Assembly: GCA_028279745.1 (NCBI GenBank)
Contig: JANQNC010000001.1
Location: forward strand, 1,269,351-1,301,350
Origin: Candidatus Nanoarchaeia archaeon
Lineage (GTDB): Archaea > Nanobdellota > Nanobdellia > Woesearchaeales > JANQNC01
Direction: 5' to 3'
DNA: 32,000 bases
The notes below the pieces were generated by a model. It did not search any database. It was not told the DNA's origin and saw only the letters and a list, made by a program, of their open reading frames with translations. A program made the translations under genes and the position numbers. Below are positions 5,717 to 28,465 of this stretch, one piece after another (position 1 is the first letter of the stretch; each line of letters begins with the position of its first letter).

Positions 5717-5718
5717 AA

Positions 5719-11480: not shown

Positions 11481-12275
11481 ATGTTATCAACTAAGAATGC
11501 AATCGAACCATTGATCGGGCTTGGACTAAATAAGTATGAGGCAAAAGTGTACCTCACTTTGATAGGGGAAGGAATCAGTACAGCTAAGAATATTTCGGAT
11601 ATTACTGGAATCCCTTATGGAAAAGTTTATGAGGTTATAAACGCGTTGTCTTCAAAAGGGTTCTGCACGATACTTCCTTCAAAACCCATGAAGTGTCAGG
11701 CCATATCTCCTAGGGATGCTGTGATAAACGCAAAAAAAGATGTTGAAGAAAGATATGATAAGCTTGAAAGCCACATAGTGTCAGAGTTGGAGCCTCTGTT
11801 CGTAGAGAGCAGAAAGTTTGTGGAGCCCAAAGGGATATTCTGGGTGATAAATGGGAGAGCAAACGTGGTGAAAAAGATAGATGAGCTTATCCAGAAGGCA
11901 GAGAAAAATATATGCATACACTGCTCACCAAATAGTCTTTCAAGACTTGTCCTGCATAAGGAGCTGTTGAGAGAGGCAAATAAAAGAGGCGTCAACATAT
12001 CTATAGCAGGTGTTGTGAACAACGAAGTCCTTGAAGAGATAGACTCATTAGACTTTTGCGACATAAGAAAAGTAAAAAGTGCAAATAACAACTTGTTCTC
12101 TATAGACGATAAAGAGTGTTTGATAATAGAGCCGATGCCAGATGATGAGAATATATTATATGGAAGAGACTTGGGAGTTTGGGTATCATCCTCTTCATTC
12201 ACTAAGTTCATGTGCGATTTTTTTGCCACAAACTTTAAGAAAGCAAAATCTGTTTTTCCTCCTGTCAGTAAGTGA
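11481..12275 (+). CDS. TrmB-family transcriptional regulator (paralogue 1)
   Basis: 264 aa. N-terminal winged HTH is GLNKYEAKVYLTLIGEGISTAKNISDITGIPYGKVYEVINALSSKGF, followed by a TrmB-like C-terminal domain. A strong SD (GGGGGGGTGA, 11465-11474) lies 6 nt upstream of the ATG. Confidence 0.85.
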   Translation: MLSTKNAIEPLIGLGLNKYEAKVYLTLIGEGISTAKNISDITGIPYGKVYEVINALSSKGFCTILPSKPMKCQAISPRDAVINAKKDVEERYDKLESHIVSELEPLFVESRKFVEPKGIFWVINGRANVVKKIDELIQKAEKNICIHCSPNSLSRLVLHKELLREANKRGVNISIAGVVNNEVLEEIDSLDFCDIRKVKSANNNLFSIDDKECLIIEPMPDDENILYGRDLGVWVSSSSFTKFMCDFFATNFKKAKSVFPPVSK

Positions 12276-12292: not shown

Positions 12293-12338
12293 CTTAATAT
12301 AAAAAATAGATAAATATTCTTTATGTAACTACAAGATT

Positions 12339-13136
12339 ATGGAAAACACTGACAGAGCGTTTAGGATACTGTCTGATATCGGACTGAATAAATATGAAGC
12401 AAAAGTGTATCTAACATTGGTGAGTGAAGGGGTAAGCACCGCAAAGAACATATCAGAAATTACGGGGATCCCATATGGGAAAGTATATGAGATAATAAAC
12501 ACTTTATCATATAAAGGATTTTCTATGATACTCCCTTCAAAACCTATGAAGTATACGGCAATATCGCCAAAACAGGTTCTTTTCTCTTCTAAGAACGAGA
12601 CGCTAGATAAGTTTAGGAAAATAGAAACAGATATAGTGAACAATCTGGAACCTTTGTTTATGAAAAACAGGCAGTTCACACAACCAAAGAGTGTGTTCTC
12701 ACTAGTCAACGGCAGATCTAGTGTAGTGAAGAAGACTGAGGAGCTGATAAACAAGGCTAACAAAAATATACATATCCAGTGCAGTGCAAATTCATTGTCG
12801 CGGCTAGTGCTCCACAAAGAGGCGTTGAAAAATGCTGCAGACAGAGATGTAAAAATAGCTATTGCAGGCATAACCGATGAGAGCAATAAGAAAGAGATAA
12901 GCTCTTTAGGGTTTTGTGATGTAAGGCAGATAAAAAGATCAAGAAGCAATTTCATCTCAGTAGACGCGAGTGAGTGTTTAGTTGTGACCCCCTTTCCAGA
13001 CGATGAGAACATAATCTTCGGAAGAGATACAGGAATGCACATACTAAGCAGCTCATTCACGTCTTTTACTGATAATTTTTTCATATCAAGTTTTAATAGA
13101 GCAAAAAAGATTGATTTATCCACTAAGCTGAGATAA
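12339..13136 (+). CDS. TrmB-family transcriptional regulator (paralogue 2)
   Basis: 265 aa, collinear with 11481..12275. The HTH is GLNKYEAKVYLTLVSEGVSTAKNISEITGIPYGKVYEIINTLSYKGF (40 of 47 positions identical to paralogue 1 by my count). Confidence 0.85.
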   Translation: MENTDRAFRILSDIGLNKYEAKVYLTLVSEGVSTAKNISEITGIPYGKVYEIINTLSYKGFSMILPSKPMKYTAISPKQVLFSSKNETLDKFRKIETDIVNNLEPLFMKNRQFTQPKSVFSLVNGRSSVVKKTEELINKANKNIHIQCSANSLSRLVLHKEALKNAADRDVKIAIAGITDESNKKEISSLGFCDVRQIKRSRSNFISVDASECLVVTPFPDDENIIFGRDTGMHILSSSFTSFTDNFFISSFNRAKKIDLSTKLR

Positions 13137-13233
13137 AAAACTTACCTGATATCTCTTGATTAAAAAAGAATAATAACTTCTTTCCCTTAGACTTTCAAAA
13201 AATAACTTTAAACGTAAAAGGGTGAGGGTCAAA

Positions 13234-16200
13234 ATGGTAAAAATAATGAACTTTAAGTCTATCAAATCTATTTTATTTCTGTTTGTATTTTTTTTGTCTA
13301 TCGTAGTTGTATCTGCAGCAAACTGTTGGGATTATGATCTCCAAACTAATTGTGAAAGTGCAGACTGTAGCTGGAATGAAGATCCCTGGGGGGGATGGTG
13401 TGAGGAAAAAGGATGCTGGAATTTTTGGTCAGAAAATGAATGTACAAGTTCGACAAGCACTATAAATAGATCTTGCAGCTGGCAATCATCTTCATCAGGT
13501 TATTGTGGGGAGTTGGATTGTTGGTCTTTTGACGGGACAAACGAGACAGCATGCGTAAATAATACATATAACATAGAATGTGAATGGATAGATGAATATA
13601 ATGCAACAACCTGGGACTTCCCCTGTATGGGCCCTCCAGAAAAACAATGCTGGAACTATACAACATCTGAATCCTGCAGTGCGGTTGCAGGGTGTAGCTG
13701 GGGGATGTGCTCTAAAAAGGATTGTTGGGACTATTCTGATACGGATGAATACACTTGTGAATCTCAAGTCGGATTCAACAAAAAATCTTGCGAATGGAAA
13801 AGCTATTCTTGGGGCAGTGAATGTGTAGAACGAGGGTGTTGGGACTATAGCAATGTAACTTCTTGTGAATCAAATGGATGTAAGTGGGACGGAAGCTGTA
13901 TGGAGCTTTCTTGTGGAGAATTTACTGGAGTAAATGAAAGTTATTGTGTAAGCAACAGCGCAAACCTAAGCTGTGAATGGGATTCAGCAGGTAAGTGGTG
14001 TATGGAAAAAGGATGCTGGAACAATGATGAAGGAAGTTGTGACAACGGCCTTGGCTGTTTTTGGGATACTTTTGAAGGGGGGTGGTGTCAAGAGCAAGGG
14101 TGCTGGAACTGGGAAAATAACCAGACAGCATGTGAAGATACAGGTCTTCATCCAGGACTTGAATGCACTTATGATGTTAGCGGAGGGTGGTGTTATGAAG
14201 ACGTTGGCTCCAAATCCTGTGCAGACATCAACGTAGAAAGAGACTGCATGGATACTTTTTACTGTTGGTGGGATCACTCTCAGAGCACATGCAACGATCC
14301 TGGCGCAGGTATAGAGACTGAGTTTGAAGAATGGAACCCTGGCTGTTATATCTTTGATATGGATCAAAATGCCTGTGGAAATGTTACTGGTTGTTATTGG
14401 AGCGGCGGTGTGTGTGAAACAAACATGACTGTGCTTCCTACTAATGAACTAAACTGCAGCCTTATACAAGACTCAGATATGTGTAATAACATACCTGCAT
14501 TGAGCAGCTGCTGCAGCTGGCAAGCTGGAGAGTGTGTGGCAGATAGATTCGATCAGTCTTGTCGTGAGGAGATGCAGGAACCGCCTGAAGGAGCACATTA
14601 TTGTGAAGACTATGTGGCATACACAAGCAAAGATGTATGTGAACAGATAGCGGGAAGCCCCTGGTTTATGCCGTGCGAGTTTGATAATTCTACTGAAAGA
14701 TGTGAGTTTAAAGGAGATGATGTCTTTGGAGATGGAGACAAGAACATAATGAAGATAGACAATGAGATAAATTGTGAAGCTGCAGGAGGAAAATGGATCC
14801 TTGACACATATCCGAGTACGAACAATGCAAGCACAGCCGTAAGACTATCTCTTGGAAGATGTGACTTTAAATTTGATGAAGAAAGAAACTGCAACAAGGA
14901 ATGTTTTGCATGTGAGTACAAACAAGACAAGACAAATTGGGGTACCGTTGCAGATGCAAGGAAAGCATGTGTCGATTCAGAGCTTGGACTTTGTAGATTT
15001 ATAGAAGATCCAGATGCGCCAAACAGCTACGGTTATTGCGAACCAAAAGAGGAATTCAAGAAAGGGCTTGTAGGGGGAGACTGCAGCACTGATTGTGGTG
15101 CATGCACCTATATGGGAGACCCTGCAGCATCAGCAGGAAAAAGGCCATCAGATTACTGTGAGGGCAGCGATGCAAAATGCAAGTGGGTAGCAGATCCTTC
15201 ACATCCTGATGATGAAAGCTTTGGAAGATGTGCATCAAAATCCGAAAAGACATGTGAGGATAGATGCGATAAATGTTATGATGAAAGCAACTGTCAAAGC
15301 ACAGGAGGAAAACAAGGAGACTCAAGTGCAGCAGCAGTATGTGAATGGAACAATGGAATATGCTCATATAAATCGGGAGCAAGCGAGATGGAAGTATGTT
15401 GGGATGGACAGGACAACAACGGGGATAATAAGGTAGACTGCGCAGATTCTATGTGCTGGTCAGACCCCTTTTGTGGCGGAGAGTTCATGTTTGGAGACTT
15501 CGGAAAAGACTGTTTCATGTTTAACGAACAATCAAGCTGTGAAACTGAAGGTTGTGCATGGGTAAACGAGAACTGGGGCGCATGGTGTGACATGCCTGGA
15601 GCAGTATGCTGGAAAAAAGACGGAACAAACCAGACAGTTTGTGAAGATGGCGGAAGCTGTGAATGGCACTCAGGCTTCGGAGGATTCTGCGAGCAGGACT
15701 GGGATATGGGGGGAGCTGCAAACTCATGCTTCTCAGCGACAAACCAGACAGGCTGTCAAGCACTATCAGACCAGAACTGCACCTGGGTTATCGACGAATG
15801 GTGCAGCGAAAAAGGAGGATTCTGTGACCCAGACCCTTCTTACAGCGGAGCATGGTATGATTGTGCACAGCATGACGTGGATGGAAATGCAACTTGTGAA
15901 TCACATGCAGAATGCAACTGGTATGTGGATCCTTGGTGTCAGCAACAAGGAAGCGATGCAGGATTCTGTGATCACAAAAGCTTTGCGTGCTGGCAGTATG
16001 ATGACGGTCAAAACATATGTGAGAATTCAACAAACTCAGAGTGGTGTGTCTGGATGACTGACCCTTACTCTCCTGAAGGAGGATTCTGTGAAGGAAAGAT
16101 GATGAGTGGAGAATCAGGAAGCTGTTGGGATCAGAGCAACCAGACCAGCTGCAGCGAAGCATCAGGATGCAGATGGATGAGTGGATTCTGTGACCCTCCT

Positions 16201-19110
16201 GGATTTGGAGGAGAGATGATGCCTGGAATGCCTGGCGGTGAAGGAGAAGGATCTGGAGGAGACCTGGGAGGATTTGGAATGCAGTGTTTCCTACATGATG
16301 GGGATCAGACAAGCTGCGAAGACCAGACAGGATGCGGATGGTTTAATGAGCCAAATCCGTTCTGTGACATAAACTTTGAAAGCAACTGTCCGCAGTACTC
16401 GTATGATCAAACTGTGTGCGCAGACAACGCAAAATGTAAATGGAATCCTCAAGGTAATTTCTGTGATGAAAAGCCATTTGAGTGTTTCTGGAACACTACA
16501 CTATGGGCAGATGAGACTTTGTGTGATGCACATCCGTTATGCTACTGGTCTGATGAGGCAGGTGATGACCATTGCCACCCTATAGGGTTCAGCGTCTCAA
16601 CAGAGTCAGCGTGTGATGCATTAGGAGACAGCTTCAGGTGGACAACAGGATGGTGCAACCCTGCACTAGCGACTGAGTTCTTCAGTGGGATGGAGATGGG
16701 CGGACCGCCGGTACCGTTAGGAAGCGATCCAGATGATTCTGTATTTGAAGATGAAGTAGACATAACTGAGTTTGGGATGAAAGACATGGGCAATGCATTT
16801 GGATTTGGAGTTACTGTGGATGACCCGCAAAATTCAGCGGCGTGCAACAATGTGAAGATGGAGACGGGTACAGGTACAGGAACAAACACGACAAAATTCT
16901 ACTGGTACCTGGATACTGATGGAAACACGACAAATAACTGTGACTTAAGGCACAGCTCGGGCTCAGGAGGTTATGAATTTTACATAAAGAACGAATGGAG
17001 CTATGATGAAAGCACAGGGACCACAACAGAAAGTCCAGCAGCTTACAGGTGTTTAGATGGTGAGTGGAATCTTGCAGAGGTAAGAGTTAGCAGTCAAAAG
17101 CAGCTGATGTGTAACCAGATTGGCGGAGCGATGGTAGCTATAGACAAGACAGAGCTTGAAAAATTCCCAAGTCTATACTCTACAAACGTGGATATAAGAG
17201 TTGCAGTAGCAAGCGCAGATAGTGATGGAACTGCCTCAAACCCAACAGACACAGCGAGCCCAGGGTGGGTAACTCCAGGTTCACAAGACTTTGAGATACC
17301 AGAACTTTATGGATACGAGACTGACTGGATCAAAAAAGCATCTAATGAAGCAGCAGGAGCAGGTTTTGTACAGTATAATAAGGAAGCGGATTGCTGGACT
17401 GAAGAGGGATGTGAAGATTACAGCTGTAAAGGGCACACGTTCTGCGTAGAAAACAATTATGGTGTTGAGTCAGCAGGGTGGACTGATACAAGAGTCCCTA
17501 AACTTATAGGGTCAATAAAAGAAACATACCCTGATGGGGCATTTTTCGCTTATTTTACAGACAAACCTGCAAATGGAACTTTCTTGCTTTATGGAGATGA
17601 TGAGATATGCAGCGAGTCAAGCTTGACAGATGCGATATATGACGTCGGGATATACAGCAACTATAGCAAAGAGTACAAGCTGTGGCATACGGCAGAGCTT
17701 TTCAACGACTCAGGAGTGAACTCATTAAACGCACCATTATCTTCAGGAACAACATACTACTATAAGATCAAAGTGTGTGATGAAGGAGGTAAATGTGGGA
17801 TGAGCAAGTGTTCAAGCTTTAGGACAGAAGAATCTCAAGAAGACTGTACGTTCTGTAAGTTTGTTTCAAGGATAAAAGCGCCTGATGGATGGAACGTCTA
17901 TTACGACATAGACCAGGATGGAAATTATGAGCACTGGCAAGGAAACGTTCTGGGAACAAAAGACGGCATGTTTACAAACTATACCCTTGGCAGGAAAGCA
18001 AATATACTCATCAACACAACTGATGGAACCGCACATATGGAGTTCATAAATGCGACGCTTACCAAGACAGGTATGAGTCCAAAGATAAGAGACATAGAGA
18101 CAAGCACAGCTCTAAAACAAGGAACGCTGAACACATCGTCAGGTGAAGAGATAGGGTATGTGGGGATGATAGAAGAGACAAGGGACAAGATTATACATAA
18201 TTTATACCCCGAGATATGTAGGATCAAGATACCTGGAACGGGATCATGTGATGAGTTATGGCACTGTGACAGTGATGGAGAAAATTGTGTTGATAGGACA
18301 GCAGAGGCTACTTTGGTAAGTACGGGATCAGACTCGTGCGAATGGCAGCTACCCTACTGTGAGTTCTCGACTTGGGCAGGAGGTCAGCCAGCCACTCCTT
18401 CAAGCAGCTCAAGCAGCTCTGGAGGAGGGGGAGGAGGCGGTTCCGGCGGAATTGCAGGAAGCACCTCATCAACTTCGGTTGTTGAAGTATCTCACTACTA
18501 CACATCGATAGCTGAAGGTGAAAGTATAACCCTGCCAATAGAAAAGGAAGGGATAGCGCTCACTAAAAACACGTTCATCGCTGGAGAAGATTTAAGTGAT
18601 ATGAACCTGGTGATGAGAAAAGTAGAGAATAGTTCAGAGCTTCCTAAAAAAGAGGAGGATGCATATCAATATCTAGAGATAACTGCATCAAACGTAGAAG
18701 CAAGCAGCATATCAAAAGCTACGTTAGAATTTAAGGTAGATACAAGCTGGATGACTGGCAATGACTATGGAGATGTAATCCTTAAAAGATATACAGATGG
18801 ATGGGATGAACTTCCGACAAGATTCATCAAGACTGAAGGAAGATACTCGCATTACAGCGCAGAAACACCTGGCTTTAGCTATTTTGCGATAGTTGGGATA
18901 AAGGATGATCTGGCTGATGCAGAACAACAAGACTTACCTCAGCAGGAGCAGCAGCAAGACCCCGAGCTTGAAGAAACAGATACACCTCAACAGCAAGTGA
19001 CGGGAGCTGCGGTAGCGCCTGGTGGGGGAGAAGGTGTGAGTGTGACAAACATCCTTATCTTTGTAGTCCTATTGGGTACGGTGGTGCTTATAATTGCAAA
19101 GAAGAGATAA
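13234..19110 (+). CDS. Giant secreted, C-terminally membrane-anchored Cys/Trp-repeat surface protein with an FN3-like region and a PGF-pre-PGF domain
   Basis: ORF 13222..19110. The GTG at 13222 lies inside GGGTGAGGG (an SD), so the ATG at 13234 is preferred (1959 aa). N-terminal signal peptide is FKSIKSILFLFVFFLSIVVVSAA. It is followed by more than 20 Cys/Trp modules and many N-x-S/T sequons. A Ser/Gly linker is PSSSSSSSGGGGGGGSGG. The C-terminus is the TM helix VTNILIFVVLLGTVVLII plus AKKR. Confidence 0.9.
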   Translation: MVKIMNFKSIKSILFLFVFFLSIVVVSAANCWDYDLQTNCESADCSWNEDPWGGWCEEKGCWNFWSENECTSSTSTINRSCSWQSSSSGYCGELDCWSFDGTNETACVNNTYNIECEWIDEYNATTWDFPCMGPPEKQCWNYTTSESCSAVAGCSWGMCSKKDCWDYSDTDEYTCESQVGFNKKSCEWKSYSWGSECVERGCWDYSNVTSCESNGCKWDGSCMELSCGEFTGVNESYCVSNSANLSCEWDSAGKWCMEKGCWNNDEGSCDNGLGCFWDTFEGGWCQEQGCWNWENNQTACEDTGLHPGLECTYDVSGGWCYEDVGSKSCADINVERDCMDTFYCWWDHSQSTCNDPGAGIETEFEEWNPGCYIFDMDQNACGNVTGCYWSGGVCETNMTVLPTNELNCSLIQDSDMCNNIPALSSCCSWQAGECVADRFDQSCREEMQEPPEGAHYCEDYVAYTSKDVCEQIAGSPWFMPCEFDNSTERCEFKGDDVFGDGDKNIMKIDNEINCEAAGGKWILDTYPSTNNASTAVRLSLGRCDFKFDEERNCNKECFACEYKQDKTNWGTVADARKACVDSELGLCRFIEDPDAPNSYGYCEPKEEFKKGLVGGDCSTDCGACTYMGDPAASAGKRPSDYCEGSDAKCKWVADPSHPDDESFGRCASKSEKTCEDRCDKCYDESNCQSTGGKQGDSSAAAVCEWNNGICSYKSGASEMEVCWDGQDNNGDNKVDCADSMCWSDPFCGGEFMFGDFGKDCFMFNEQSSCETEGCAWVNENWGAWCDMPGAVCWKKDGTNQTVCEDGGSCEWHSGFGGFCEQDWDMGGAANSCFSATNQTGCQALSDQNCTWVIDEWCSEKGGFCDPDPSYSGAWYDCAQHDVDGNATCESHAECNWYVDPWCQQQGSDAGFCDHKSFACWQYDDGQNICENSTNSEWCVWMTDPYSPEGGFCEGKMMSGESGSCWDQSNQTSCSEASGCRWMSGFCDPPGFGGEMMPGMPGGEGEGSGGDLGGFGMQCFLHDGDQTSCEDQTGCGWFNEPNPFCDINFESNCPQYSYDQTVCADNAKCKWNPQGNFCDEKPFECFWNTTLWADETLCDAHPLCYWSDEAGDDHCHPIGFSVSTESACDALGDSFRWTTGWCNPALATEFFSGMEMGGPPVPLGSDPDDSVFEDEVDITEFGMKDMGNAFGFGVTVDDPQNSAACNNVKMETGTGTGTNTTKFYWYLDTDGNTTNNCDLRHSSGSGGYEFYIKNEWSYDESTGTTTESPAAYRCLDGEWNLAEVRVSSQKQLMCNQIGGAMVAIDKTELEKFPSLYSTNVDIRVAVASADSDGTASNPTDTASPGWVTPGSQDFEIPELYGYETDWIKKASNEAAGAGFVQYNKEADCWTEEGCEDYSCKGHTFCVENNYGVESAGWTDTRVPKLIGSIKETYPDGAFFAYFTDKPANGTFLLYGDDEICSESSLTDAIYDVGIYSNYSKEYKLWHTAELFNDSGVNSLNAPLSSGTTYYYKIKVCDEGGKCGMSKCSSFRTEESQEDCTFCKFVSRIKAPDGWNVYYDIDQDGNYEHWQGNVLGTKDGMFTNYTLGRKANILINTTDGTAHMEFINATLTKTGMSPKIRDIETSTALKQGTLNTSSGEEIGYVGMIEETRDKIIHNLYPEICRIKIPGTGSCDELWHCDSDGENCVDRTAEATLVSTGSDSCEWQLPYCEFSTWAGGQPATPSSSSSSSGGGGGGGSGGIAGSTSSTSVVEVSHYYTSIAEGESITLPIEKEGIALTKNTFIAGEDLSDMNLVMRKVENSSELPKKEEDAYQYLEITASNVEASSISKATLEFKVDTSWMTGNDYGDVILKRYTDGWDELPTRFIKTEGRYSHYSAETPGFSYFAIVGIKDDLADAEQQDLPQQEQQQDPELEETDTPQQQVTGAAVAPGGGEGVSVTNILIFVVLLGTVVLIIAKKR
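13324..14703 (+). repeat. Protein-level repeat array I: about 13 copies of a 4-Cys/Trp module
   Basis: Examples: CWDYDLQTNCESADCSWNEDPWGGWCEEKG / CWNFWSENECTSS..CSWQSSSSGYCGELD / CWDYSNVTSCESNGCKWDGSCMELS / CWNNDEGSCDNGLGCFWDTFEGGWCQEQG. The pattern is C-[WF]-x(4-9)-C-x(3-9)-C-x-W-x(2-9)-C. DNA-level identity between copies is low. Confidence 0.8.
14890..15363 (+). repeat. Protein-level repeat: three copies of a 6-Cys module (CxxxCxxC-Y head plus a C-x-[WF] tail)
   Basis: CNKECFACEY...CVDSELGLCRF...C / CSTDCGACTY...CEGSDAKCKW...C / CEDRCDKCY...CQS...VCEW..IC. Confidence 0.7.
15511..16656 (+). repeat. Protein-level repeat array II: about 10 further Cys/Trp modules, interrupted by a Gly/Met/Pro-rich linker
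   Basis: CFMFNEQSSCETEGCAWVNENWGAWCDMPG / CWKKDGTNQTVCEDGGSCEWHSGFGGFCEQD / CWDQSNQTSCSEASGCRWMSGFCDPPG / CFLHDGDQTSCEDQTGCGWFNEPNPFCD / CPQYSYDQTVCADNAKCKWNPQGNFCDE. The linker is GGEMMPGMPGGEGEGSGGDLGGFG. Confidence 0.8.
17496..17826 (+). other. FN3-like beta-sandwich region inside the giant protein
   Basis: PKLIGSIKETYPDGAFFAYFTDKPANGTFLLYGDD...LWHTAELFNDSGVNSLNAPLSSGTTYYYKIKVCDEGGKCGMSKCSSFRT follows the P..a.v.w.Td.pa.g.v.yG....H...l..L..gt.YyY pattern of FN3-type domains. Confidence 0.5.
18478..18897 (+). other. PGF-pre-PGF-type domain (TIGR04213-like) inside the giant protein
   Basis: VVEVSHYYTSIAEGESITLPIEKEGIALTKNTF...YQYLEITASNVEASSISKATLEFKVDTSWMTGNDYGDVILKRYTDGWDELPTRFIKTEGRYSHYSAETPGFSYFAIVG matches, from memory, the layout of this archaeal surface-protein domain. 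That includes its terminal tPGFS.FAI motif. Confidence 0.6.
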
Positions 19111-19164
19111 CCTTTTCTTCTTTTATCGAGGGGTTGTCGATAGGGTCAGGAGGTGTGTAAAACC

Positions 19165-19905
19165 ATGAGTCTTAAACTAACAGCTTGGTTGCTTGTAGCA
19201 TTATGCTTGTCTTGTGCTGCATTATCGCTACCCCCAAATCCTGAACTTTACTGGGGTTATGCATACATTGATAACAATCCAGCAAATGGAAGCTTGATAG
19301 CTGAGACTGGCGAAGGAGATATTATCGTTAATTTATCGCTTCCTATGGATCCTGAGTACCCTGGCAGCTATAGCATAAAACTAACCTTCGACGACAAAAT
19401 GACTCGGCACAGTAAAGAAGGAGCTACTGAAGGAGAAAAGATAGTGTGGAAGGTAGACGGATTGGTTGCAGCTATAACAGACACGGCTGAAAGAGACAAG
19501 GTAAACAATAATTTTAGCATAAAAGCGTTTACTCCAGTAAATATGACCGTAGGTAACTTAACGCACGATGCCATGGTGGATGTTGGAGAAATGGTAAAGA
19601 TAAATGCAAAGGTTGAAAATAAAGGACAGATCGATATTGATGGATTTGATGCGCTATTATACATAAATGATTCATTACAAGAAAAGGCACATGTTAACTA
19701 TACTCTAAACGAGGGGGAGAACTTATCTGTTGCGTTCTACTGGCAAGCAGATATAGAAGGGAACTATTCCTTTTCAGTTAACGTTTCAGCAAGAAACTGT
19801 GAAGAGTGCAAGATACAGAGAGCATCTTCCGCTTCGGCAATCTCAGTAGTGAGAAATGAGCAGGCCAACAACTCAGTATCAAACCTAAAAAATGAATCCT
19901 CTTGA
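19165..19905 (+). CDS. Secreted protein with a C-terminal CARDB-like domain
   Basis: ORF 19153..19905. The GTG at 19153 is part of GGAGGTG (an SD), so the ATG at 19165 is preferred. Signal peptide is MSLKLTAWLLVALCLSCAALS. CARDB-like stretch is VGEMVKINAKVENKGQIDIDGFDALLYINDSLQEKAHVNYTLNEGENLSVAFYWQADIEGNYSFSVNV. It starts 54 nt after the giant gene. Confidence 0.8.
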   Translation: MSLKLTAWLLVALCLSCAALSLPPNPELYWGYAYIDNNPANGSLIAETGEGDIIVNLSLPMDPEYPGSYSIKLTFDDKMTRHSKEGATEGEKIVWKVDGLVAAITDTAERDKVNNNFSIKAFTPVNMTVGNLTHDAMVDVGEMVKINAKVENKGQIDIDGFDALLYINDSLQEKAHVNYTLNEGENLSVAFYWQADIEGNYSFSVNVSARNCEECKIQRASSASAISVVRNEQANNSVSNLKNESS

Positions 19906-20332: not shown

Positions 20333-20791
20333 CTAGTTTGCGCACGTACCTTCCAGCTTGTTTCCGTCGCCTGTAAAGTTATAGTAGGCACTGGTCTTTG
20401 CATCTTGGTAGTAGATGCTTGTAGTGTAGCTGAAGGACTGGCCAGCAGTGCAGGCTGCAATAGCACCTGTGTATGTTTTTGATCCGCCAGGGGCCAACGT
20501 GCTTGTTGAACTCTCAAGGTCAACACCATTAACCATAACATCAGTCAAAACTATCTGGTTTCTTAGGTTGTTCTTAACGACTACAGTGTCGGTTCCACTT
20601 GCAGAGACTGCATAATCTGTAACTGCAACGTCTGCACTAGCCCAGTAAGATGCTATCGCTCTTCCTGTAACGCCTTTTCCTATCCCTGGAATCCCCCCCA
20701 TGGCAACAACAGCAAGTAATGCGATTGTAATTACTACTCCCACAATTATTATGTATTCTGTTGCGCCTTGCGCTTTTTTAGAAAATCTCAT
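20333..20791 (-). CDS. Type IV pilin-like protein with a class III signal peptide (candidate major pilin, Flp-like motif)
   Basis: ORF 20333..20803. The GTG at 20803 lies inside GAGGTGAT (an SD), so the ATG at 20791 is preferred (152 aa). The N-terminus MRFSKKAQGATEYIIIVGVVITIALLAVVAMG has a short basic leader, then Q-G-A-T-E-Y, then a hydrophobic helix. The remainder is Thr/Ser/Ala-rich. Confidence 0.85.
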   Translation of the reverse strand: MRFSKKAQGATEYIIIVGVVITIALLAVVAMGGIPGIGKGVTGRAIASYWASADVAVTDYAVSASGTDTVVVKNNLRNQIVLTDVMVNGVDLESSTSTLAPGGSKTYTGAIAACTAGQSFSYTTSIYYQDAKTSAYYNFTGDGNKLEGTCAN

Positions 20792-20942
20792 TTTTATTAT
20801 CACCTCTGATTTATTGCAAAAATTGTTTTTACTTACGGTATGGGGAATTAAAAACGTATTAACCTTTTTAGTACCTTTAAAAAGAGAAATTGTTTTATCT
20901 CCTGTGGGGAGTTAGTGGGGGAAGGGGGTTTTGATGGGTGAG

Positions 20943-21965
20943 CTATATTTTAAGGAATGCATCCATTACAAATCTTGATAATGCAAAAATGATAAAAGAG
21001 AACGTTATGATGAGCGGCGCATATTTTAATCCCTGTTTCTCATCCCCTTCAGAGATTACACCTGTCAGTATGCTTGCAAGTAACGAAGTTACAAATATTA
21101 TGATCACAGAAAGCATAAAAATGAAATCTGGAGTTATGCTTACTGTTCCTGCTAGAAAGGACATTCCAAATTCAGCATCAGAAATATTTGAGGAAGACTG
21201 CATATTTGTTATTATCTTTATGAACTGTATTGAAACTGATAATAATAACGGCGCACCAAAACCAACTATAAATATTATAAGCATGCTGTACATCTTGGTA
21301 TTTGCGACCAAGTCTTTCTTAAGCGATCTTGTTTCAGCGATGTCATTTGCAAGGTCTTCCAAGAGCTGGGCCAGCTGCCCGCCAGATCTTATTGAAGTGA
21401 CGAAGAGCTTCATAGACCTTTCGAGCAAAGAAGATCTGCTTCTTCTTGACATGTCCAAAAGAGCTTTCCCAAAAGAGGTCATGCCTAACGACTTGTTAGT
21501 TGCAATCTCGATCTCCTCTTTCAAAGGTCCGAATTCTTTTCTTGCAGCCAGCTTCATAGCTTGAAAGGGAGTCATTCCTGCCCTAAGGTTTGAAGATATG
21601 ATCTGGAGCATATCAGGCAACGACTCTTCAATCCTTCTTGTCTTGTCTGCAGCTTTTAGGTACACAATAAGATATACAAGAAGCTGCACTGCAAGTATAG
21701 ATACCAAAGCAATAATGATGTATGCAGAGGAGAAAGACAAGTTTATGTAACGCGTGTCTATGCTGACTGCATCTGGGAAAAAAAGTTTGTGCAACAACAC
21801 AACTATAGAGAAGATAAGCATGGAGATTATTAATGAACTTCCGATCCAGTAATCAGTACTTTGCTCATTTTTCGTGTATGACAAGAGCTCTCCAAGGTGC
21901 TGTCTATATCCTGAAGGAGCTAACATCGTAAGTGATCTATACAACCTGTATCGCACCCCCATCAT
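20943..21965 (-). CDS. Type IV pilus platform protein, single T2SS-F domain (TadC-like)
   Basis: The ORF track extends to 22154, but an ATG at 21965 forms an ATGA overlap with the upstream stop (340 aa). T2SS-F-like stretch is LPDMLQIISSNLRAGMTPFQAMKLAARKEFGPLKEEIEIATNKSLGMTSFGKALLDM...GGQLAQLLEDLANDI, with flanking TM helices. Confidence 0.8.
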   Translation of the reverse strand: MMGVRYRLYRSLTMLAPSGYRQHLGELLSYTKNEQSTDYWIGSSLIISMLIFSIVVLLHKLFFPDAVSIDTRYINLSFSSAYIIIALVSILAVQLLVYLIVYLKAADKTRRIEESLPDMLQIISSNLRAGMTPFQAMKLAARKEFGPLKEEIEIATNKSLGMTSFGKALLDMSRRSRSSLLERSMKLFVTSIRSGGQLAQLLEDLANDIAETRSLKKDLVANTKMYSMLIIFIVGFGAPLLLSVSIQFIKIITNMQSSSNISDAEFGMSFLAGTVSITPDFIFMLSVIIIFVTSLLASILTGVISEGDEKQGLKYAPLIITFSFIIFALSRFVMDAFLKI

Positions 21966-22855
21966 ATGTTCACCACAGGTCTTCTTTTTTTTATCATGCC
22001 TATCATTATGATCTGCAACGCGAAACAGCACACGACAAACGCGATAAATGCAGCGTTGCTTAAGTTCATACCTGCAAAAGATGAAAGTATGACCATCATA
22101 GTGATGCCTATTGTCGGGATAGCAACAGCAAACAACATGTAGATCAAAGACCACATGTTCAACTCTTTTGAATAGTCTTTTATCTTGGTCTTATGTTCAT
22201 GAGTCAGATTGGCGATTATGGTCTTTAATGCGCTCTTGATGCTTGAGCCTGCGTGTATGGCATTTATCAGCTGCCACAACGTTTTTCTTAGATGTTCTGA
22301 TCCGGACCTTACTGCAGCATTTTCAAGACTTTTATCTAATGGTGAACCTGTACTCACCTGTCTTGAAACTTTTCCAAACTCTTTGCTTATTAAACCATAA
22401 TCTGATCTAGATATGTTGTCAATCGAATCATATAAAGAAGTTCCAGATCCGATCTGAAGCAGCATATCCTTAAGCGCAAAGACAAGGTTCTTCTCAAGCA
22501 TATCTGCTTTTTTTCTTGCAAGTATCGAAGGATATCTCACAAGCAGGTAAAAAAGAATTGCAGAGAATATAACGCTGATCGAAACACTGATCAACAATGA
22601 GTTATGAATTCCTGCTTGTCTAATGAGATAAGCAAGGCTAAAAAAAAATGCAAAGAGCAGCACGAGAGAAAAAAAACAGTTTATCATGCTGACAGACAGA
22701 TACTCCTTGTCATCCATCTTAATATCTGTCTTTTCAAGATCATACTTAAGCCCAGGGACGCCTCTAGAGATCAGTTCTCCAATTCCTGTAAACCTTTTAG
22801 AAAGCTTTTTGCTTACTTCAAGAGGCAGTATCATCAAGGGAATTTTTTGGGTCAT
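21962..22855 (-). CDS. Type IV pilus platform protein, single T2SS-F domain (TadB-like)
   Basis: 297 aa. T2SS-F-like stretch is LKDMLLQIGSGTSLYDSIDNISRSDYGLISKEFGKVSRQVSTGSPLDKSLENAA...GSSIKSALKTIANL, with TM helices at both ends. There is an ATGA overlap with the ATPase gene at 22852-22855. Confidence 0.8.
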   Translation of the reverse strand: MTQKIPLMILPLEVSKKLSKRFTGIGELISRGVPGLKYDLEKTDIKMDDKEYLSVSMINCFFSLVLLFAFFFSLAYLIRQAGIHNSLLISVSISVIFSAILFYLLVRYPSILARKKADMLEKNLVFALKDMLLQIGSGTSLYDSIDNISRSDYGLISKEFGKVSRQVSTGSPLDKSLENAAVRSGSEHLRKTLWQLINAIHAGSSIKSALKTIIANLTHEHKTKIKDYSKELNMWSLIYMLFAVAIPTIGITMMVILSSFAGMNLSNAAFIAFVVCCFALQIIMIGMIKKRRPVVNI

Positions 22856-24645
22856 TTTTGCATAATTTTTTTTGGGCTTTCATTTTTTTTAGCAGCATCG
22901 ATGACTTTATCAGGAGTCTTGTAATAGGTTCTCATGATCTGTCCAACAGAATCCATGTCTTTCAGTTCATGTTTAAGCATCCAATCTAATATGGCCTCCT
23001 TTTCTTCTAGGTCTTTTTTAATCTCGTCAGGAGTCATACCCGTATGTAGATTAAGCTCTTCAATGATTCGGATGCTTTCATTTGTCTTCTCAAACTTATC
23101 GCTGGAAGGTCTCCATCTGTACAGATAGTTGATATCTACTTTCTCTCCCCCCGACAGAACTTCTGCAAGCTCTAACATTCTTCTTGCACCTTTTTTCCTA
23201 TCTCGGTATTGTACTAAGATGAGATGTAAAGCTTCAATCTCAGACTTAGGGATCTGGATGGGGGGTTCGACAAGTCTTCTAAGAACTTGTGAAATGGTGT
23301 CTGCATGCAGGGTGCAGCATACAGAGTGGCCTGTGTGCATGGCTTCAAACATAGCTTCAGCTTGTCTTTTTCTTCTTACCTCTCCCACAACTATTCGGTC
23401 AGGCCTCATCCTCAAAGAAGCAACCATAAGGTCAAGCATAGACACTTCACCTTTTCCTTCAGGGTTTGGGTTCCTGCTTGTCAAAGGCACCCAGTTTCGT
23501 GTTAGGGAGAGGGGTAAGCTTATCTCTCTTGTGTCCTCTATGGAGATTATCCTCTGCGTTGCAGGGATCAAAGAGGTGACTGCATTAAGGATAGAAGTCT
23601 TTCCTGAAGCTGTCCCTCCTGCGACCATCACATTAAGCTCATACTGTACTGCTAGCCAAAGAAGCGCAGCGACTTCAACTGAGATGCAGTTTACTTTAGG
23701 GTCGATAAAATTTATTATTGTCCAGGGGTTTCTTGAAAACCTTCTTATTGTTACTGTATTGCCTGCGGTTGATATGGGGAATAATGTTGCAGCCACCCTG
23801 TCCCCTGTAGAAAGATGAGCATCCATTAGGGGGTTAAGGGAGCTTATATCCCGCCCAGACTTCCTTCCGATCTGAGAGATAAAATTGTATATCTCTTCTT
23901 CATCTTTTGTCTTGTGGGTGGATTCAAGCCATCCATGCTTTTTATGGAAAACGCTTAATGGATTGTTTGCACCATTTATCGTTATCTCTTCTAAAAACTC
24001 ATCTGAAAGGATCAACTCAATGTCTCCCAAGCCATAAATCTTGTGAAGCATCATTCCCGCAAGCATCTTTATCTGAGAATCATACGTTTGCGGCAGTTCA
24101 TTTTTTATTAATGAGTATGAGCTCTTAAAAAACGAATCTTTAAGCTTGGCTATTTTCCTAGGATCGGTTATATCCTCAAAAGATATTGAAGTGTTTTTTG
24201 CAAGCTCATCAATCAAGCAATCAAGAAAGGCGTTAGTTGGCAGTTCAAGCAAAGGCTTTATCAGCTCGTAAACAAGAACATCTTTATCTGGAACATCCCA
24301 GATGTTAACCTTGGCATCTACGAAATCTGATTGCAGTGTATAGCTTTCTATGAGCTTCTTGTCTTTTACGGAAAAGGGTGTGGATGAGGGAGGAGTTAAG
24401 GGCTCCGACACTTTAACTGTGGGCTTTTTTATTATGTTCACAGGATAGCTAACTTTTAGTATCCCTTTTTGTGCAAGCAGGTTAGTCAGTCTTTCTATGA
24501 TGTCTTCAGAAACACCGAACTCTTTTGAGAGTTCAGAAAGGGCAGTGTTGTCGTCATTCTGTCTTATCTTGTCAACAAGCTTGTCTATAAAAGTCTTGAC
24601 AAGGGAGTTTTCTTTTTCTGGCATAGAACTATTTCTAGCATACAT
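22852..24645 (-). CDS. Type IV pilus / secretion ATPase (FlaI/TadA/VirB11 family, T2SS-E) with an N-terminal extension
   Basis: 597 aa. Walker A is VAGGTASGKTS, Asp box RIISIEDTREI, Walker B RPDRIVVGEVR and His box TGHSVCCTLHA. SD GGGAGGT lies 8-9 nt upstream of the ATG at 24645. Confidence 0.9.
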   Translation of the reverse strand: MYARNSSMPEKENSLVKTFIDKLVDKIRQNDDNTALSELSKEFGVSEDIIERLTNLLAQKGILKVSYPVNIIKKPTVKVSEPLTPPSSTPFSVKDKKLIESYTLQSDFVDAKVNIWDVPDKDVLVYELIKPLLELPTNAFLDCLIDELAKNTSISFEDITDPRKIAKLKDSFFKSSYSLIKNELPQTYDSQIKMLAGMMLHKIYGLGDIELILSDEFLEEITINGANNPLSVFHKKHGWLESTHKTKDEEEIYNFISQIGRKSGRDISSLNPLMDAHLSTGDRVAATLFPISTAGNTVTIRRFSRNPWTIINFIDPKVNCISVEVAALLWLAVQYELNVMVAGGTASGKTSILNAVTSLIPATQRIISIEDTREISLPLSLTRNWVPLTSRNPNPEGKGEVSMLDLMVASLRMRPDRIVVGEVRRKRQAEAMFEAMHTGHSVCCTLHADTISQVLRRLVEPPIQIPKSEIEALHLILVQYRDRKKGARRMLELAEVLSGGEKVDINYLYRWRPSSDKFEKTNESIRIIEELNLHTGMTPDEIKKDLEEKEAILDWMLKHELKDMDSVGQIMRTYYKTPDKVIDAAKKNESPKKIMQK

Positions 24646-25970: not shown

Positions 25971-25973
25971 AAA

Positions 25974-28049: not shown

Positions 28050-28465
28050 AGATGAGAGCGCAAATATCCACAGAATTCATAATGATAACATCTGTAATGT
28101 TGATCATTTTCCTGATGATGTTTTCAATAATCGATAAAAGAGATAATGAAGTGTATTCTGGGATGGCTGTGCTTTCTGCAAGGACAGAAGGAGATAAGTT
28201 AGCTAACAATATAAATTCGGTTTTTCTTGCAAAAGAAGGAGCAAAGAAGACAATAATCCTTCCAGAGACATTAAAGGACGGAAACGACTATTTAGTGGCC
28301 ATCTACCCATCAGACCGGTTGGTGGAGGTAAGATGGAATTCTCTAGAGGGAACAAGAACATACACTTCAACGATCGTAACATCAAAAGTAACAGGGTACC
28401 TAAGCGCAATAAGCAACACCTCCTTAACAATATCAAACATAGAGGGGGGTGTAGTTATTGAATAA
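28046..28465 (+). CDS. Pilin-like protein with a class III signal peptide (QxSxEF type)
   Basis: 139 aa. The N-terminus is MKMRAQISTEFIMITSVMLIIFLMMF. There is an ATGA overlap with the upstream gene. Confidence 0.8.
   Translation: MKMRAQISTEFIMITSVMLIIFLMMFSIIDKRDNEVYSGMAVLSARTEGDKLANNINSVFLAKEGAKKTIILPETLKDGNDYLVAIYPSDRLVEVRWNSLEGTRTYTSTIVTSKVTGYLSAISNTSLTISNIEGGVVIE

What the first reader, a model, noticed from the sequence alone, without database searches (positions are those of the whole stretch)
13234..19110. 1959-aa surface protein built from more than 20 copies of an unnamed 4-Cys/Trp module
After a signal peptide, roughly the first 1140 residues are a chain of 25-45-aa modules. Their skeleton is C-[WF]-x(4-9)-C-x(3-9)-C-x-W-x(2-9)-C. 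Examples are CWDYDLQTNCESADCSWNEDPWGGWCEEKG and CWKKDGTNQTVCEDGGSCEWHSGFGGFCEQD. The Trp two residues after the third Cys and the acidic/Gly spacer before the next CW are highly regular. N-x-S/T sequons are very frequent (NETA, NNTY, NATT, NYTT, NVTS, NESY, NQTA and others). The C-terminal part has an FN3-like region, a Ser/Gly linker, a PGF-pre-PGF domain, an acidic Gln-rich stalk and one TM helix. I cannot assign the module to a named family. It only superficially resembles TSR or EGF-type disulfide knots. The copies have diverged at the DNA level, so this is an old array rather than a recent expansion. The protein is probably a disulfide-rich, glycosylated stalk or adhesin projecting from the cell.
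Basis: partly seen in the sequence, partly recalled or inferred. Interest (0 to 1): 0.8.

Follow-up and report, generated by a model that had tools for sequence, protein, structure and literature searches.

The report
Conserved giant cysteine-knot surface protein
This gene encodes a 1958-residue, membrane-anchored surface glycoprotein found in many tiny DPANN archaea; its outer half is a fixed chain of about 20 copies of a small, unnamed four-cysteine module, and its base contains a fold like the self-cleaving GAIN domain of animal adhesion receptors, which suggests the outer arm may be shed under force.

Summary
ORF 13234..19110 (+) encodes 1958 aa with 138 Cys. A module profile finds 20 clear copies plus 1 degenerate copy of C-W-x-Y..[NQ]-[QE]-T-x-C..C-x-W..G-x-[WF]-C. 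Composition-preserving shuffles give about 0.01 copies per sequence. No named family claims the module: Pfam, NCBIfam, PDB sequences and Foldseek against PDB and viral models gave nothing significant, and PSI-domain similarity is only weak.

1. This is not a free-running repeat protein. It belongs to a collinear, one-per-genome family of ~1850-2100 aa proteins in DPANN archaea (Woesearchaeota/Pacearchaeota/Nanoarchaeia-type MAGs). All 138 Cys are ~99% conserved column by column, at 35-70% overall identity.
2. Residues 436-758 are different Cys-rich units: three C-x3-C-x2-C units and a teneurin-like Ca-type knot.
3. The C-terminal 800 aa fold confidently (pLDDT 86). Their best PDB match is the GAIN domain of adhesion GPCRs (prob 1.00). 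I place that match on aa 1536-1716, where a near-invariant C-E-F-S sits in the turn before the last strand. That is the position where bacterial 'MAIN' domains (2026 preprint) cleave at H-F|S.

Best reading: an envelope/adhesion glycoprotein with a possibly self-nicking, force-releasable ectodomain. Cleavage, disulfides and function are all inferred.

The parts
13220..13229 (+). Shine-Dalgarno-like GGGTGAGGGT upstream of the ATG start
   Evidence: Read directly. It supports ATG 13234 over GTG 13222. The NCBI protein P0001 starts at the same ATG.
13234..19110 (+). CDS of 1958 aa plus stop. The mature ectodomain (aa 29-1932) is ~210 kDa before glycans, pI 4.1.
13234..13317 (+). Sec-type signal peptide (aa 1-28, ...VVVSA|AN)
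   Evidence: Read from the sequence: basic n-region, 15-residue hydrophobic core, A-x-A-like end. Orthologs show the same layout, ending just before the first C-W. No SignalP run.
13321..14538 (+). First array: 12 four-Cys/Trp modules (aa 30-435). The twelfth is a 5-Cys degenerate copy.
   Evidence: Module HMM hits, alignment. In the AF2 model each module is two short helices plus a beta-hairpin.
14539..15507 (+). Middle Cys-rich region (aa 436-758) made of different units. All Cys are invariant in orthologs.
14890..15363 (+). Three 6-Cys units starting C-x3-C-x2-C (aa 553-602, 617-666, 674-710). Same helix-helix-hairpin layout with one extra Cys pair.
15388..15477 (+). Acidic C-x-D-G-x-D-N-x-G-D-x-x-x-D-C-x-D-x-x-C knot (aa 719-748), of the Ca-binding type seen in the teneurin C-rich region
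   Evidence: Teneurin-4 7plp E 0.03. NF033662 acid_disulf_rpt scores 18 bits against a cutoff of 41. Both are below significance, so this is a resemblance only.
15508..16578 (+). Second array: 9 four-Cys/Trp modules (aa 759-1115)
16711..17295 (+). D1: beta-sandwich domain (aa 1160-1354) with invariant Y-x-D-x-D-G..C and a terminal T-P-G-x-x-D-F. No known family.
   Evidence: AF2 pLDDT >90. A5 profile gave no PDB or Pfam hit.
17386..17448 (+). Small 4-Cys knot (aa 1385-1405). It is the degenerate form of a D-x-D-x-D-G Ca-type knot present in most orthologs.
   Evidence: Consensus
17503..17823 (+). FN3/Ig-like beta-sandwich (aa 1424-1530)
   Evidence: AF2. Foldseek hits to FN3 arrays at E 1e-3 to 1e-2. 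Weak Pfam Ig_Rha78A_N hit.
17839..18381 (+). D3: GAIN_B/MAIN-like beta-sandwich (aa 1536-1716), 13 strands plus 2 short helices. The last ~50 aa hold 6 Cys and 2 Trp.
   Evidence: The best PDB matches of the C-terminal model are BAI3 and BAI2 HormR-GAIN (4dlo_B E 2.7e-4, 8oek E 7.5e-3, both prob 1.00, 158-168 columns, rmsd ~5 A). The assignment of that match to D3 rather than D1 is my inference, from the secondary-structure count and the motif.
18361..18369 (+). E1710-F1711-S1712, the putative autoproteolytic site (F|S), in the turn before the last beta-strand (S-T-W-A)
   Evidence: C-E-F-S in 171 of ~190 homologs. Q/D/S/V/I-F-S are rare, E-F-T occurs once, His never. F-[S/T]-x-[Y/W] is kept in remote relatives, which have G-F-S. 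The model places the motif between strands 562-567 and 574-576 at pLDDT >90.
18382..18483 (+). Disordered Ser/Gly linker (aa 1717-1750)
   Evidence: pLDDT <50. It causes spurious scFv-linker hits in the PDB sequence search.
18484..18903 (+). PGF-pre-PGF beta-sandwich (aa 1751-1890)
   Evidence: TIGR04213 E 1.4e-21, pLDDT >90. It is the least conserved part among orthologs.
18904..19029 (+). Acidic Gln/Glu/Pro-rich disordered stalk (aa 1891-1932)
19030..19107 (+). C-terminal TM helix plus KKR tail. No PGF motif.
   Evidence: Helix 799-818 of model B. PGF is absent from the last 60 aa of 120/120 homologs, and a hydrophobic stretch of >=17 residues is present in 103/120.

Best explanation
The gene encodes the conserved giant envelope glycoprotein of a DPANN archaeon of the Woesearchaeales/Pacearchaeales type (class Nanoarchaeia). 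It is a type-I membrane protein.

Its predicted layout, from the membrane outward, is:
- TM helix with a KKR tail inside the cell;
- acidic disordered stalk;
- PGF-pre-PGF sandwich;
- flexible Ser/Gly linker;
- a conserved base cassette: GAIN_B/MAIN-like sandwich, FN3-like sandwich, small Ca-type Cys knot, D1 sandwich;
- a distal arm of ~1100 aa made of about 24 tiny helix-helix-hairpin knots. These are 20-21 four-Cys/Trp modules of a new, unnamed family plus 6-Cys variants, each probably locked by two disulfides and many carrying an N-glycan just before the second Cys.

Shown: the anatomy, the conservation, the lack of any named family for the module, and the fold match.

Inferred: the arm is a rigid, protease-resistant, glycan-coated contact or coat element. 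The ectodomain (~186 kDa) is nicked autocatalytically at F1711|S1712 in the turn before the last strand of the GAIN-like domain. It stays held non-covalently on the ~26-kDa anchored fragment and can be pulled off by force, as proposed for bacterial MAIN-domain proteins and adhesion GPCRs. For a small episymbiotic cell this would give attachment to a partner cell or surface together with controlled release.
For: Reality and significance of the modules.

Fixed scaffold:
- All 138 Cys are ~99% conserved and Trp 71%, against 36% for other residues, in 70 orthologs of 35-70% identity.
- Insertions of >=18 aa carry exactly 4 Cys in 49 of 64 cases.
- The Cys count of the ectodomain is even in 53 of 65 orthologs.

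Family range:
- 222 clusters in the 5.8-billion-protein set, all 'hypothetical' or 'PGF-pre-PGF domain-containing'.
- 74 loci in 74 different MAGs or genomes, none with two loci, including the complete genome GW2011_AR15.

Surface topology: signal peptide, sequons at 31 against 17 +/- 3.7, pI 4.1, C-terminal TM, TIGR04213.

Structure: model A has pLDDT 74.7, with each module helix-helix-hairpin. Model B has pLDDT 86 and pTM 0.69.

GAIN-like base:
- The top PDB matches are BAI3/BAI2 GAIN, prob 1.00.
- C-E-F-S is near-invariant.
- F-[S/T]-x-aromatic is kept in remote relatives whose N-terminal parts differ.
- The motif lies in the turn before the last strand and is followed at once by the flexible linker.

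Precedent: bioRxiv 10.64898/2026.05.12.724683 reports microbial GAIN_B-like 'MAIN' domains that cleave at H-F|S. Their architecture is signal peptide, adhesion or enzymatic domains, MAIN, surface anchor, and they share little sequence with eukaryotic GAIN.
Against: - No experiment of any kind exists for this family.
- The fold search does not report which residues aligned, so placing the GAIN match on D3 rather than D1 is inference.
- The Foldseek E-value is modest (2.7e-4) and rmsd is ~5 A.
- The D3 profile finds no GAIN, GPS or MAIN sequence in PDB or Pfam.
- The general-base His of H-x-[S/T] is absent everywhere. It is E/Q/D here and G in remote relatives, so cleavage may not occur or may use another mechanism.
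- In some remote relatives (P0176, P0182) the domain is followed by ~800 aa of Ig-like domains rather than by the anchor.
- Disulfides are assumed, not shown, and many DPANN live in anoxic water.
- Strict one-per-genome conservation is more typical of a structural envelope protein than of an adhesin.
- No conserved neighbouring gene gives a functional hint.
Confidence: 0.55

Rival explanations
1. It is simply the S-layer or main envelope lattice protein of these archaea. On this reading it is an uncleaved structural coat subunit: the beta-sandwich cassette builds the lattice and the Cys-knot arm forms the outer canopy. The conserved F-S turn would then be structural only.
For: - One copy per genome in 74 genomes.
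- Near-constant length and an invariant Cys scaffold.
- Signal peptide, sequon enrichment, acidic pI and a C-terminal TM anchor, as in archaeal S-layer glycoproteins.
- No conserved partner gene.
- The catalytic His is absent.
Against: - No similarity to any known S-layer family.
- S-layer proteins usually diverge fast, and Cys is rare in the archaeal S-layer proteins I know of (own knowledge).
- A Woesearchaeota metatranscriptome paper lists separately annotated 'S-layer protein genes' among top transcripts (PMC11606122). Members of this family are annotated 'hypothetical' or 'PGF-pre-PGF'.
- The reading does not explain why F-S before the last strand is kept across remote relatives.
- It is not exclusive of cleavage: a nicked canopy-plus-stalk would resemble SlaA/SlaB.
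Confidence: 0.25
2. The 4-Cys/Trp module is a stripped-down member of the PSI (plexin-semaphorin-integrin) domain superfamily, so the arm is an array of PSI-like knots.
For: - 7 of 121 single modules hit Pfam PSI PF01437 (best E 1.7e-3). Only Paramecium_SA (11) was hit more often among all Pfam families, and Trefoil was also hit 7 times.
- The top, non-significant, PDB fold hits of model A are Drosophila semaphorins 2a/2b, 64-72 columns, E 3.2-7.
- The shared C-x-W is followed by a hairpin, and the 6-Cys units have the C..C-x2-C start typical of PSI.
Against: - The full protein gives no PSI hit at E<=1.
- hhalign of the module profile against MET PSI and integrin beta3 PSI gives probabilities of 1.6% and 1.1%, with only C-x-W aligned.
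- The module profile finds nothing in PDB sequences.
- The modules have 4 Cys rather than 8 and lack C-x-W-C.
Confidence: 0.12
3. The four invariant Cys of each module bind metal (Zn or Fe-S) rather than forming disulfides. The arm would then be a metal-loaded or redox-active surface array.
For: - Many DPANN live in anoxic, sulfidic settings where extracellular disulfides are less expected (own knowledge).
- 5 modules weakly hit a TRAF2 zinc-finger model.
- The middle units contain C-x3-C-x2-C.
Against: - Canonical modules lack C-x2-C knuckles and His.
- Cys spacing is 8-12 / 4-10 / 4-14, and the conserved Trp mini-core is typical of disulfide knots.
- Cys parity is even in 82% of orthologs.
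- The protein is exported by a Sec signal.
Confidence: 0.05
4. The ORF is an assembly artefact or chimera across repeats.
For: None found.
Against: - No DNA repeat longer than 26 nt in the gene.
- More than 100 collinear orthologs from independent assemblies and sources.
- An identical protein is on record on a 1.30-Mb contig.
Confidence: 0.01

Closest known systems
Microbial GAIN-like 'MAIN' domain surface proteins (Brogan & Rudner, bioRxiv 10.64898/2026.05.12.724683) and the GAIN_B subdomain of adhesion GPCRs (PDB 4dlo, 8oek, 4dlq)
   Same: - Overall order: signal peptide, large adhesion-type ectodomain, beta-sandwich domain, anchor.
- The best PDB fold match of the C-terminal model is GAIN.
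- A hydrophobic residue followed by Ser lies in the turn before the last strand, and F|S is exactly the bond cut in YfkN.
- Little sequence similarity to eukaryotic GAIN is also reported for MAIN.
   Different: - No His: E/Q/D-F-S here, G-F-S in remote relatives.
- No sequence-level link to GPS, GAIN or MAIN.
- The anchor is a TM helix reached through a linker, a PGF-pre-PGF domain and a stalk, rather than sortase, SLH or 7TM.
- The source is DPANN MAGs, which their RefSeq-Select PSI-BLAST set does not visibly include.
- Cleavage is untested.
PSI domain (plexin repeat, Pfam PF01437)
   Same: A small Cys-knotted alpha/beta unit with C-x-W ahead of a hairpin. Weak recurrent HMM hits and top-ranked but non-significant semaphorin fold hits.
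   Different: 4 Cys instead of 8, no C-x-W-C, tandem arrays of ~20. Profile comparison is negative.
Archaeal S-layer glycoproteins with a C-terminal anchor (for example Haloferax volcanii SLG with PGF-CTERM; own knowledge)
   Same: Sec signal, acidic, many sequons, beta-sandwich domains, C-terminal membrane anchor, one dominant gene per genome.
   Different: - 7% Cys.
- No homology to any S-layer family.
- The PGF-pre-PGF domain is present but the PGF-CTERM sorting signal is absent in 120/120 homologs.
- Lattice formation is unknown.
Teneurin C-rich Ca-binding region (PDB 7plp) / NCBIfam NF033662 acidic double-disulfide repeat
   Same: aa 719-748 carry C-x-D-x-x-D-N-x-G-D-x-x-x-D-C-x-D-x-x-C, which aligns with teneurin-4. 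Most orthologs have a second such knot at aa ~1385-1405.
   Different: Only one or two copies, and scores are below the cutoffs (18 bits against 41; E 0.03). This is not the main module.
Cys-rich surface coats of protists (Paramecium surface antigen repeats PF01508; Giardia VSPs, own knowledge)
   Same: A surface protein built almost wholly of short Cys-periodic units. Paramecium_SA is the Pfam model hit by the most modules (11/121, best E 1.6e-3).
   Different: No significant homology. This protein is a single conserved gene, not a variable multigene family.

Membership tests
GAIN_B / MAIN autoproteolytic domain | GAIN_B-type twisted beta-sandwich fold | tested here: met
GAIN_B / MAIN autoproteolytic domain | Ser/Thr nucleophile preceded by a hydrophobic residue, in the turn before the last beta-strand | tested here: met
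   F1711-S1712 lie between strands 562-567 and 574-576 of model B. F-S is in about 97% of the ~190 homologs scanned and is kept in remote relatives.
GAIN_B / MAIN autoproteolytic domain | His general base: the H-x-[S/T] motif | tested here: not met
   The position is E (171 of ~190), Q, D, S, V or I, and G or M in remote relatives. It is never H.
GAIN_B / MAIN autoproteolytic domain | Sequence homology to GPS/GAIN (Pfam) or to solved GAIN chains | tested here: not met
   The A4 profile against PDB sequences and 30 members against Pfam at E<=10 gave no GPS or GAIN hit. The full protein against Pfam at E<=1 gave none. Homology to YfkN MAIN could not be tested because no sequence was at hand.
GAIN_B / MAIN autoproteolytic domain | Order: signal peptide, ectodomain, domain, surface anchor | tested here: met
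GAIN_B / MAIN autoproteolytic domain | Autoproteolysis with non-covalent association of the fragments | not testable with these tools
   Needs protein expression or proteomics.
PSI domain (PF01437) | Match to the family model above its threshold | tested here: not met
   No hit for the whole protein at E<=1. 7 of 121 single modules hit at E >= 1.7e-3.
PSI domain (PF01437) | Eight-Cys pattern with C-x2-C and C-x-W-C | tested here: not met
   Canonical modules have 4 Cys and C-x-W without the following Cys. Only the three 6-Cys units have C-x3-C-x2-C.
PSI domain (PF01437) | Profile or fold similarity to solved PSI domains | tested here: inconclusive
   hhalign probabilities are 1.6% and 1.1%, against 0.2% for EGF. 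The top Foldseek hits are semaphorins, but at E 3.2-7.
PGF-pre-PGF domain (TIGR04213) | Match above the curated cutoff | tested here: met
   77.1 bits against a cutoff of 28, aa 1756-1888.
PGF-CTERM archaeosortase substrates | P-G-F motif, TM helix and basic tail at the C-terminus | tested here: not met
   A TM helix and KKR are present, but there is no PGF in the last 60 aa of 120/120 homologs. There is no NCBIfam PGF-CTERM hit at E<=1.
Archaeal S-layer glycoprotein | Homology to a known S-layer family | tested here: not met
Archaeal S-layer glycoprotein | Forms the 2-D surface lattice and is highly abundant | not testable with these tools
   No cultured representative, and no expression data tied to this gene.
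Acidic double-disulfide repeat NF033662 / teneurin C-rich knot | Match above the cutoff | tested here: inconclusive
   aa 720-747: 18.3 bits against a cutoff of 41. Teneurin-4 7plp E 0.03, with the D-N-x-G-D..D-C-x-D motif aligned.

The most novel reading that the evidence does not exclude
A DPANN-specific, His-less branch of the GAIN/MAIN fold ([E/G]-F|S) self-nicks one gene product into two parts: a ~186-kDa shed-able arm built from a new double-disulfide fold family, and a ~26-kDa membrane stalk. The small archaeon would thereby gain a force-sensitive grip on its host. This would be an archaeal counterpart of adhesion-GPCR/teneurin-style mechanical adhesion, and a single-gene version of a canopy-plus-stalk envelope.
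Probability: 0.3. Interest if true: 0.85.

Novelty: new variant of a known kind. Interest (0 to 1): 0.66.

Why it matters
Woesearchaeales and Pacearchaeales are among the most widespread uncultured archaea. How they hold on to partners or surfaces, and what their envelope is made of, is not known.

This family spends ~6 kb of a ~1-Mb genome on one protein. It is present once per genome in every genome where the scan found it, and it is conserved down to every cysteine. That makes it a prime candidate for the main contact or coat molecule.

The work defines three pieces with no entry in Pfam or NCBIfam: the 4-Cys/Trp module, the D1 domain and the GAIN-like D3 domain. It also extends the just-reported microbial GAIN-like domains to DPANN archaea, with a variant site that lacks the catalytic His. 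This makes a clear biochemical test possible.

Tried and rejected
- Pfam and NCBIfam on the whole protein returned only PGF-pre-PGF plus noise.
- The module profile against PDB sequences gave 0 hits.
- Foldseek of the Cys-rich model gave nothing at E<=0.001 against PDB or viral models. The best viral hit was a chitin-binding type-2 array at E 0.026.
- PSI homology gave weak recurrent HMM hits, but hhalign against the verified MET PSI and integrin beta3 PSI was negative. I rejected it as a membership claim and kept it as a lead.
- The D3 and D1 profiles against PDB sequences and Pfam gave nothing.
- Conserved gene neighbourhood: only the closest relative shares the two upstream TrmB genes, so there is no partner gene.
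- No module occurs in any other ORF of the window or of two related loci.
- A search from a remote relative (P0178) looking for a named or characterised member found only unnamed DPANN proteins.
- Literature: I found no paper describing this family. A Pacearchaeota metaproteome and a Woesearchaeota metatranscriptome give no gene-level link.
- Look-up of the window's own protein in the contig index: not on record.
- Two oversized alignments failed.
Full report
**1. The observation**

The ORF is present as described. The ATG at 13234 is preceded by GGGTGAGGGT and gives 1958 aa. An identical protein is on record at NCBI on a 1.30-Mb contig. The protein has 138 Cys (7.0%) and 75 Trp (3.8%).

Cutting at every fourth Cys exposes the module at once. 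The 21 copies align as C-W-x-Y-..-[ND]-[QE]-[TS]-x-C-..-C-x-W-..-G-x-[WF]-C.

I built an HMM from 121 instances taken from seven orthologs (A3). It finds 20 copies at 7-28 bits and one degenerate 5-Cys copy, in two blocks: aa 30-435 and aa 759-1115. Shuffles with the same composition give 0.01 hits per sequence.

At the DNA level nothing longer than 26 nt repeats. Sequons number 31 against 17.0 +/- 3.7 expected.

Two corrections apply:
- The product is 1958 aa, not 1959.
- Residues 436-758 are other Cys-rich units. These are three C-x3-C-x2-C six-Cys units and an acidic C-x-D-G-x-D-N-x-G-D...D-C-x-D-x-x-C knot that aligns weakly with the teneurin-4 C-rich region.

**2. What family it belongs to**

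A search of 5.8 billion proteins gave 222 relatives. The best 120 are nearly all 1800-2100 aa long, are collinear over 85-100% of the query, and have 35-65% identity. They are named only 'hypothetical' or 'PGF-pre-PGF domain-containing', from Woesearchaeota, Pacearchaeota, Nanoarchaeota and Aenigmarchaeota MAGs.

In an alignment of 70 of them, every one of the 138 Cys is conserved (mean 99%). Trp is 71% conserved and other residues 36%.

Length changes inside the Cys-rich part are whole units. Of 64 insertions of >=18 aa, 49 carry exactly four Cys. The modal Cys count is 152, and the count is even in 53 of 65 orthologs.

A scan of one genome per GTDB species found 74 loci in 74 genomes, never two in one. 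They include the complete chromosome of archaeon GW2011_AR15.

The closest relative (65% identity, Candidatus Nanoarchaeia isolate PL23a_bin.30) shares the two upstream TrmB genes. A more distant one shares no neighbours.

So this is an old, fixed scaffold of a single-copy DPANN protein. It is not a repeat array in flux, and it is certainly not an assembly chimera.

**3. The module**

No curated family claims it.
- The whole protein gives no relevant Pfam hit, and in NCBIfam only PGF-pre-PGF.
- The module profile finds nothing among PDB sequences.
- An AlphaFold2 model of aa 25-1160 (51-sequence alignment, pLDDT 74.7) predicts each module as two short helices followed by a beta-hairpin. The six-Cys units have the same layout.
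- Foldseek finds nothing significant in the PDB or in viral models.

The only recurrent signals are weak. Among 121 single modules scanned against all of Pfam, 11 touch Paramecium_SA, 7 touch PSI and 7 touch Trefoil, with best E about 2e-3. The top-ranked but non-significant fold hits are semaphorins.

I tested the PSI idea with hhalign against the MET PSI domain (sequence verified against 1ssl) and integrin beta3 PSI. Probabilities were 1.6% and 1.1%, with only C-x-W aligned. An EGF control gave 0.2%. PSI membership is not supported; a distant relation is not excluded.

The disulfide pairing could not be read because no coordinates are returned. That the Cys form disulfides is an inference from three things: even parity, the lack of C-x2-C/His in canonical modules, and export.

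**4. The C-terminal half**

The model of aa 1140-1958 is confident (pLDDT 86, pTM 0.69). It shows, in order:
- a ~195-aa beta-sandwich (D1, aa 1160-1354);
- a small Cys knot;
- an FN3-like sandwich (aa 1424-1530);
- a ~180-aa sandwich with 13 strands and 2 short helices (D3, aa 1536-1716);
- a disordered Ser/Gly linker;
- the PGF-pre-PGF sandwich;
- a disordered acidic stalk;
- a terminal helix.

Against the PDB, the best matches are the HormR-GAIN structures of BAI3 (4dlo, E 2.7e-4) and BAI2 (8oek). All have probability 1.00 and 158-168 aligned columns at ~5 A. They rank ahead of multi-domain FN3 arrays.

The tool does not say which residues aligned. I assign the match to D3 for these reasons:
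- Its element count equals that described for GAIN_B (13 strands, 2 helices; own knowledge of Arac et al. 2012).
- Its last ~50 residues are Cys/Trp-rich, like a GPS motif.
- It ends in the most conserved motif of the protein, I-P-Y-C-E-F-S-T-W.
- It is followed immediately by the flexible linker.

Neither D3 nor D1 has any sequence-level relative in the PDB or Pfam. The assignment stays an inference, at about three in four.

**5. The F-S turn**

C-E-F-S is present in 171 of about 190 homologs. The E is occasionally Q, D, S, V or I, and never H. F and S are almost invariant.

In the model, E1710-F1711-S1712 lie in the turn between the last two strands.

An exhaustive profile search of 1.84 billion representatives found only 69 proteins. 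Of these, 42 are family members or fragments, and the rest form a tail of remote relatives. I fetched 15 of the hits. In the 11 remote relatives I aligned, the same cassette is attached to different N-terminal parts: some with a few Cys modules, others Ig-like and almost Cys-free. All are unnamed, and the one with a taxon label is Nanoarchaeota.

Across this superfamily the domain keeps W-x-[IV]-P-...-x-F-[S/T]-x-[Y/W], mostly as L-G-F-S-T-Y.

A preprint of May 2026 (bioRxiv 10.64898/2026.05.12.724683) reports that bacteria and archaea have GAIN_B-like 'MAIN' domains with the following properties:
- They share little sequence with eukaryotic GAIN.
- They sit between large ectodomains and a surface anchor.
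- They cleave themselves between F and S of an H-F-S motif in the turn before the last strand.
- Their fragments stay associated.

Their set came from PSI-BLAST of RefSeq Select. The held supplement text shows Bathyarchaeota but no DPANN entries.

The present domain fits that description in fold, position and the F-S pair, but lacks the His. I therefore file it as GAIN/MAIN-like and not as a demonstrated member. I put self-cleavage at somewhat under even odds.

**6. How it most likely works**

Shown:
- It is an exported, very acidic (pI 4.1), sequon-rich, ~210-kDa ectodomain on a C-terminal TM anchor.
- The distal half is made of tiny conserved knots. The proximal half is a conserved four-part cassette.

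Inferred:
- The knots are disulfide-locked and glycosylated. They form a stiff, protease-resistant arm that is the contact or coat surface of the cell.
- The protein may be nicked at F1711|S1712 into a 186-kDa arm held on a 26-kDa stalk, which could be released under load.

The main rival is that it is simply the S-layer subunit. Single copy and extreme conservation favour this. The lack of any S-layer homology, the Cys content and the conserved F-S turn count against it. The two readings are compatible if the nick produces a canopy-plus-stalk envelope.

Metal binding by the Cys and an assembly artefact are both unlikely.

**7. Novelty and verdict**

New here are:
- the recognition of a DPANN-wide single-copy family with an invariant 69-pair Cys scaffold;
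- the split of the Cys-rich region into two arrays plus a distinct middle part;
- a conserved base cassette shared with other DPANN surface proteins;
- a GAIN/MAIN-like domain with a His-less [E/G]-F-S site.

The kind of object is known: a surface repeat glycoprotein with a GAIN-like autoproteolytic base. This is a new variant of it, containing three domains that are in no library.

Interest is 0.66. The protein is a strong candidate for the key envelope or attachment molecule of a large uncultured archaeal group, and there is a clear biochemical test. Everything functional is still inference.

Noticed in passing
window 11481-12275 and 12339-13136 (+): Two tandem TrmB-family regulators lie directly upstream of the big gene and are syntenic in the closest relative (L001). 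The long antisense ORFs at 11696-12229 and 12329-13123 mirror them and are probably not genes.
   Followed up: partly
window 19153-19905 (+): A small secreted protein with a CARDB domain lies 45-55 nt downstream of the big gene, after a T-rich stretch. It is not a neighbour in the two related loci examined.
   Followed up: partly
window 20333-24645 (-): An archaeal type IV pilus-like locus: a pilin with a class III signal peptide, two T2SSF membrane proteins and a T2SSE ATPase.
   Followed up: no
window 25131-30222 (+): A KaiC-like ATPase is followed by a 691-aa protein and four small proteins. All of these begin with a short charged stretch and a hydrophobic segment (pilin-like), and none has a Pfam hit.
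   Followed up: no
window 30326-31546 (+): A single ORF fuses a KaiC-type ATPase domain (aa 3-238) to an Arf/Ras-type small GTPase domain (aa 240-371).
   Followed up: no
window 3313-6972 (+): Three tandem paralogous FAD-dependent oxidoreductases of the geranylgeranyl-reductase/lycopene-cyclase type. Two such genes are seen upstream in L001, one of them cut by the locus end.
   Followed up: no
window 13000-19000: G+C is 0.43-0.48 inside the big gene against 0.36-0.40 around it. This is probably an effect of the Gly/Cys/Trp-rich composition, but I did not test it.
   Followed up: no
window 17263-17295 (aa ~1344-1354) and remote relatives P0165-P0184: D1 ends in a motif kept across the whole superfamily, Y-[TY]-P-G-[ST]-x-D-F. 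It is followed by a low-confidence segment. Its role is unexplained.
   Followed up: partly
P0136 (3167 aa) and P0051, found: Some family members carry large additions. P0136 has ~1300 extra N-terminal residues of another repeat type ahead of the Cys modules. P0051 has several extra modules inserted at module 9.
   Followed up: partly
L005, L006, L009 and others: Many MAGs that carry this DPANN-type gene are deposited under the title 'uncultured Methanosarcinales archaeon', and a few as Altiarchaeota or Iainarchaeum. The labels probably do not reflect the true lineage.
   Followed up: no
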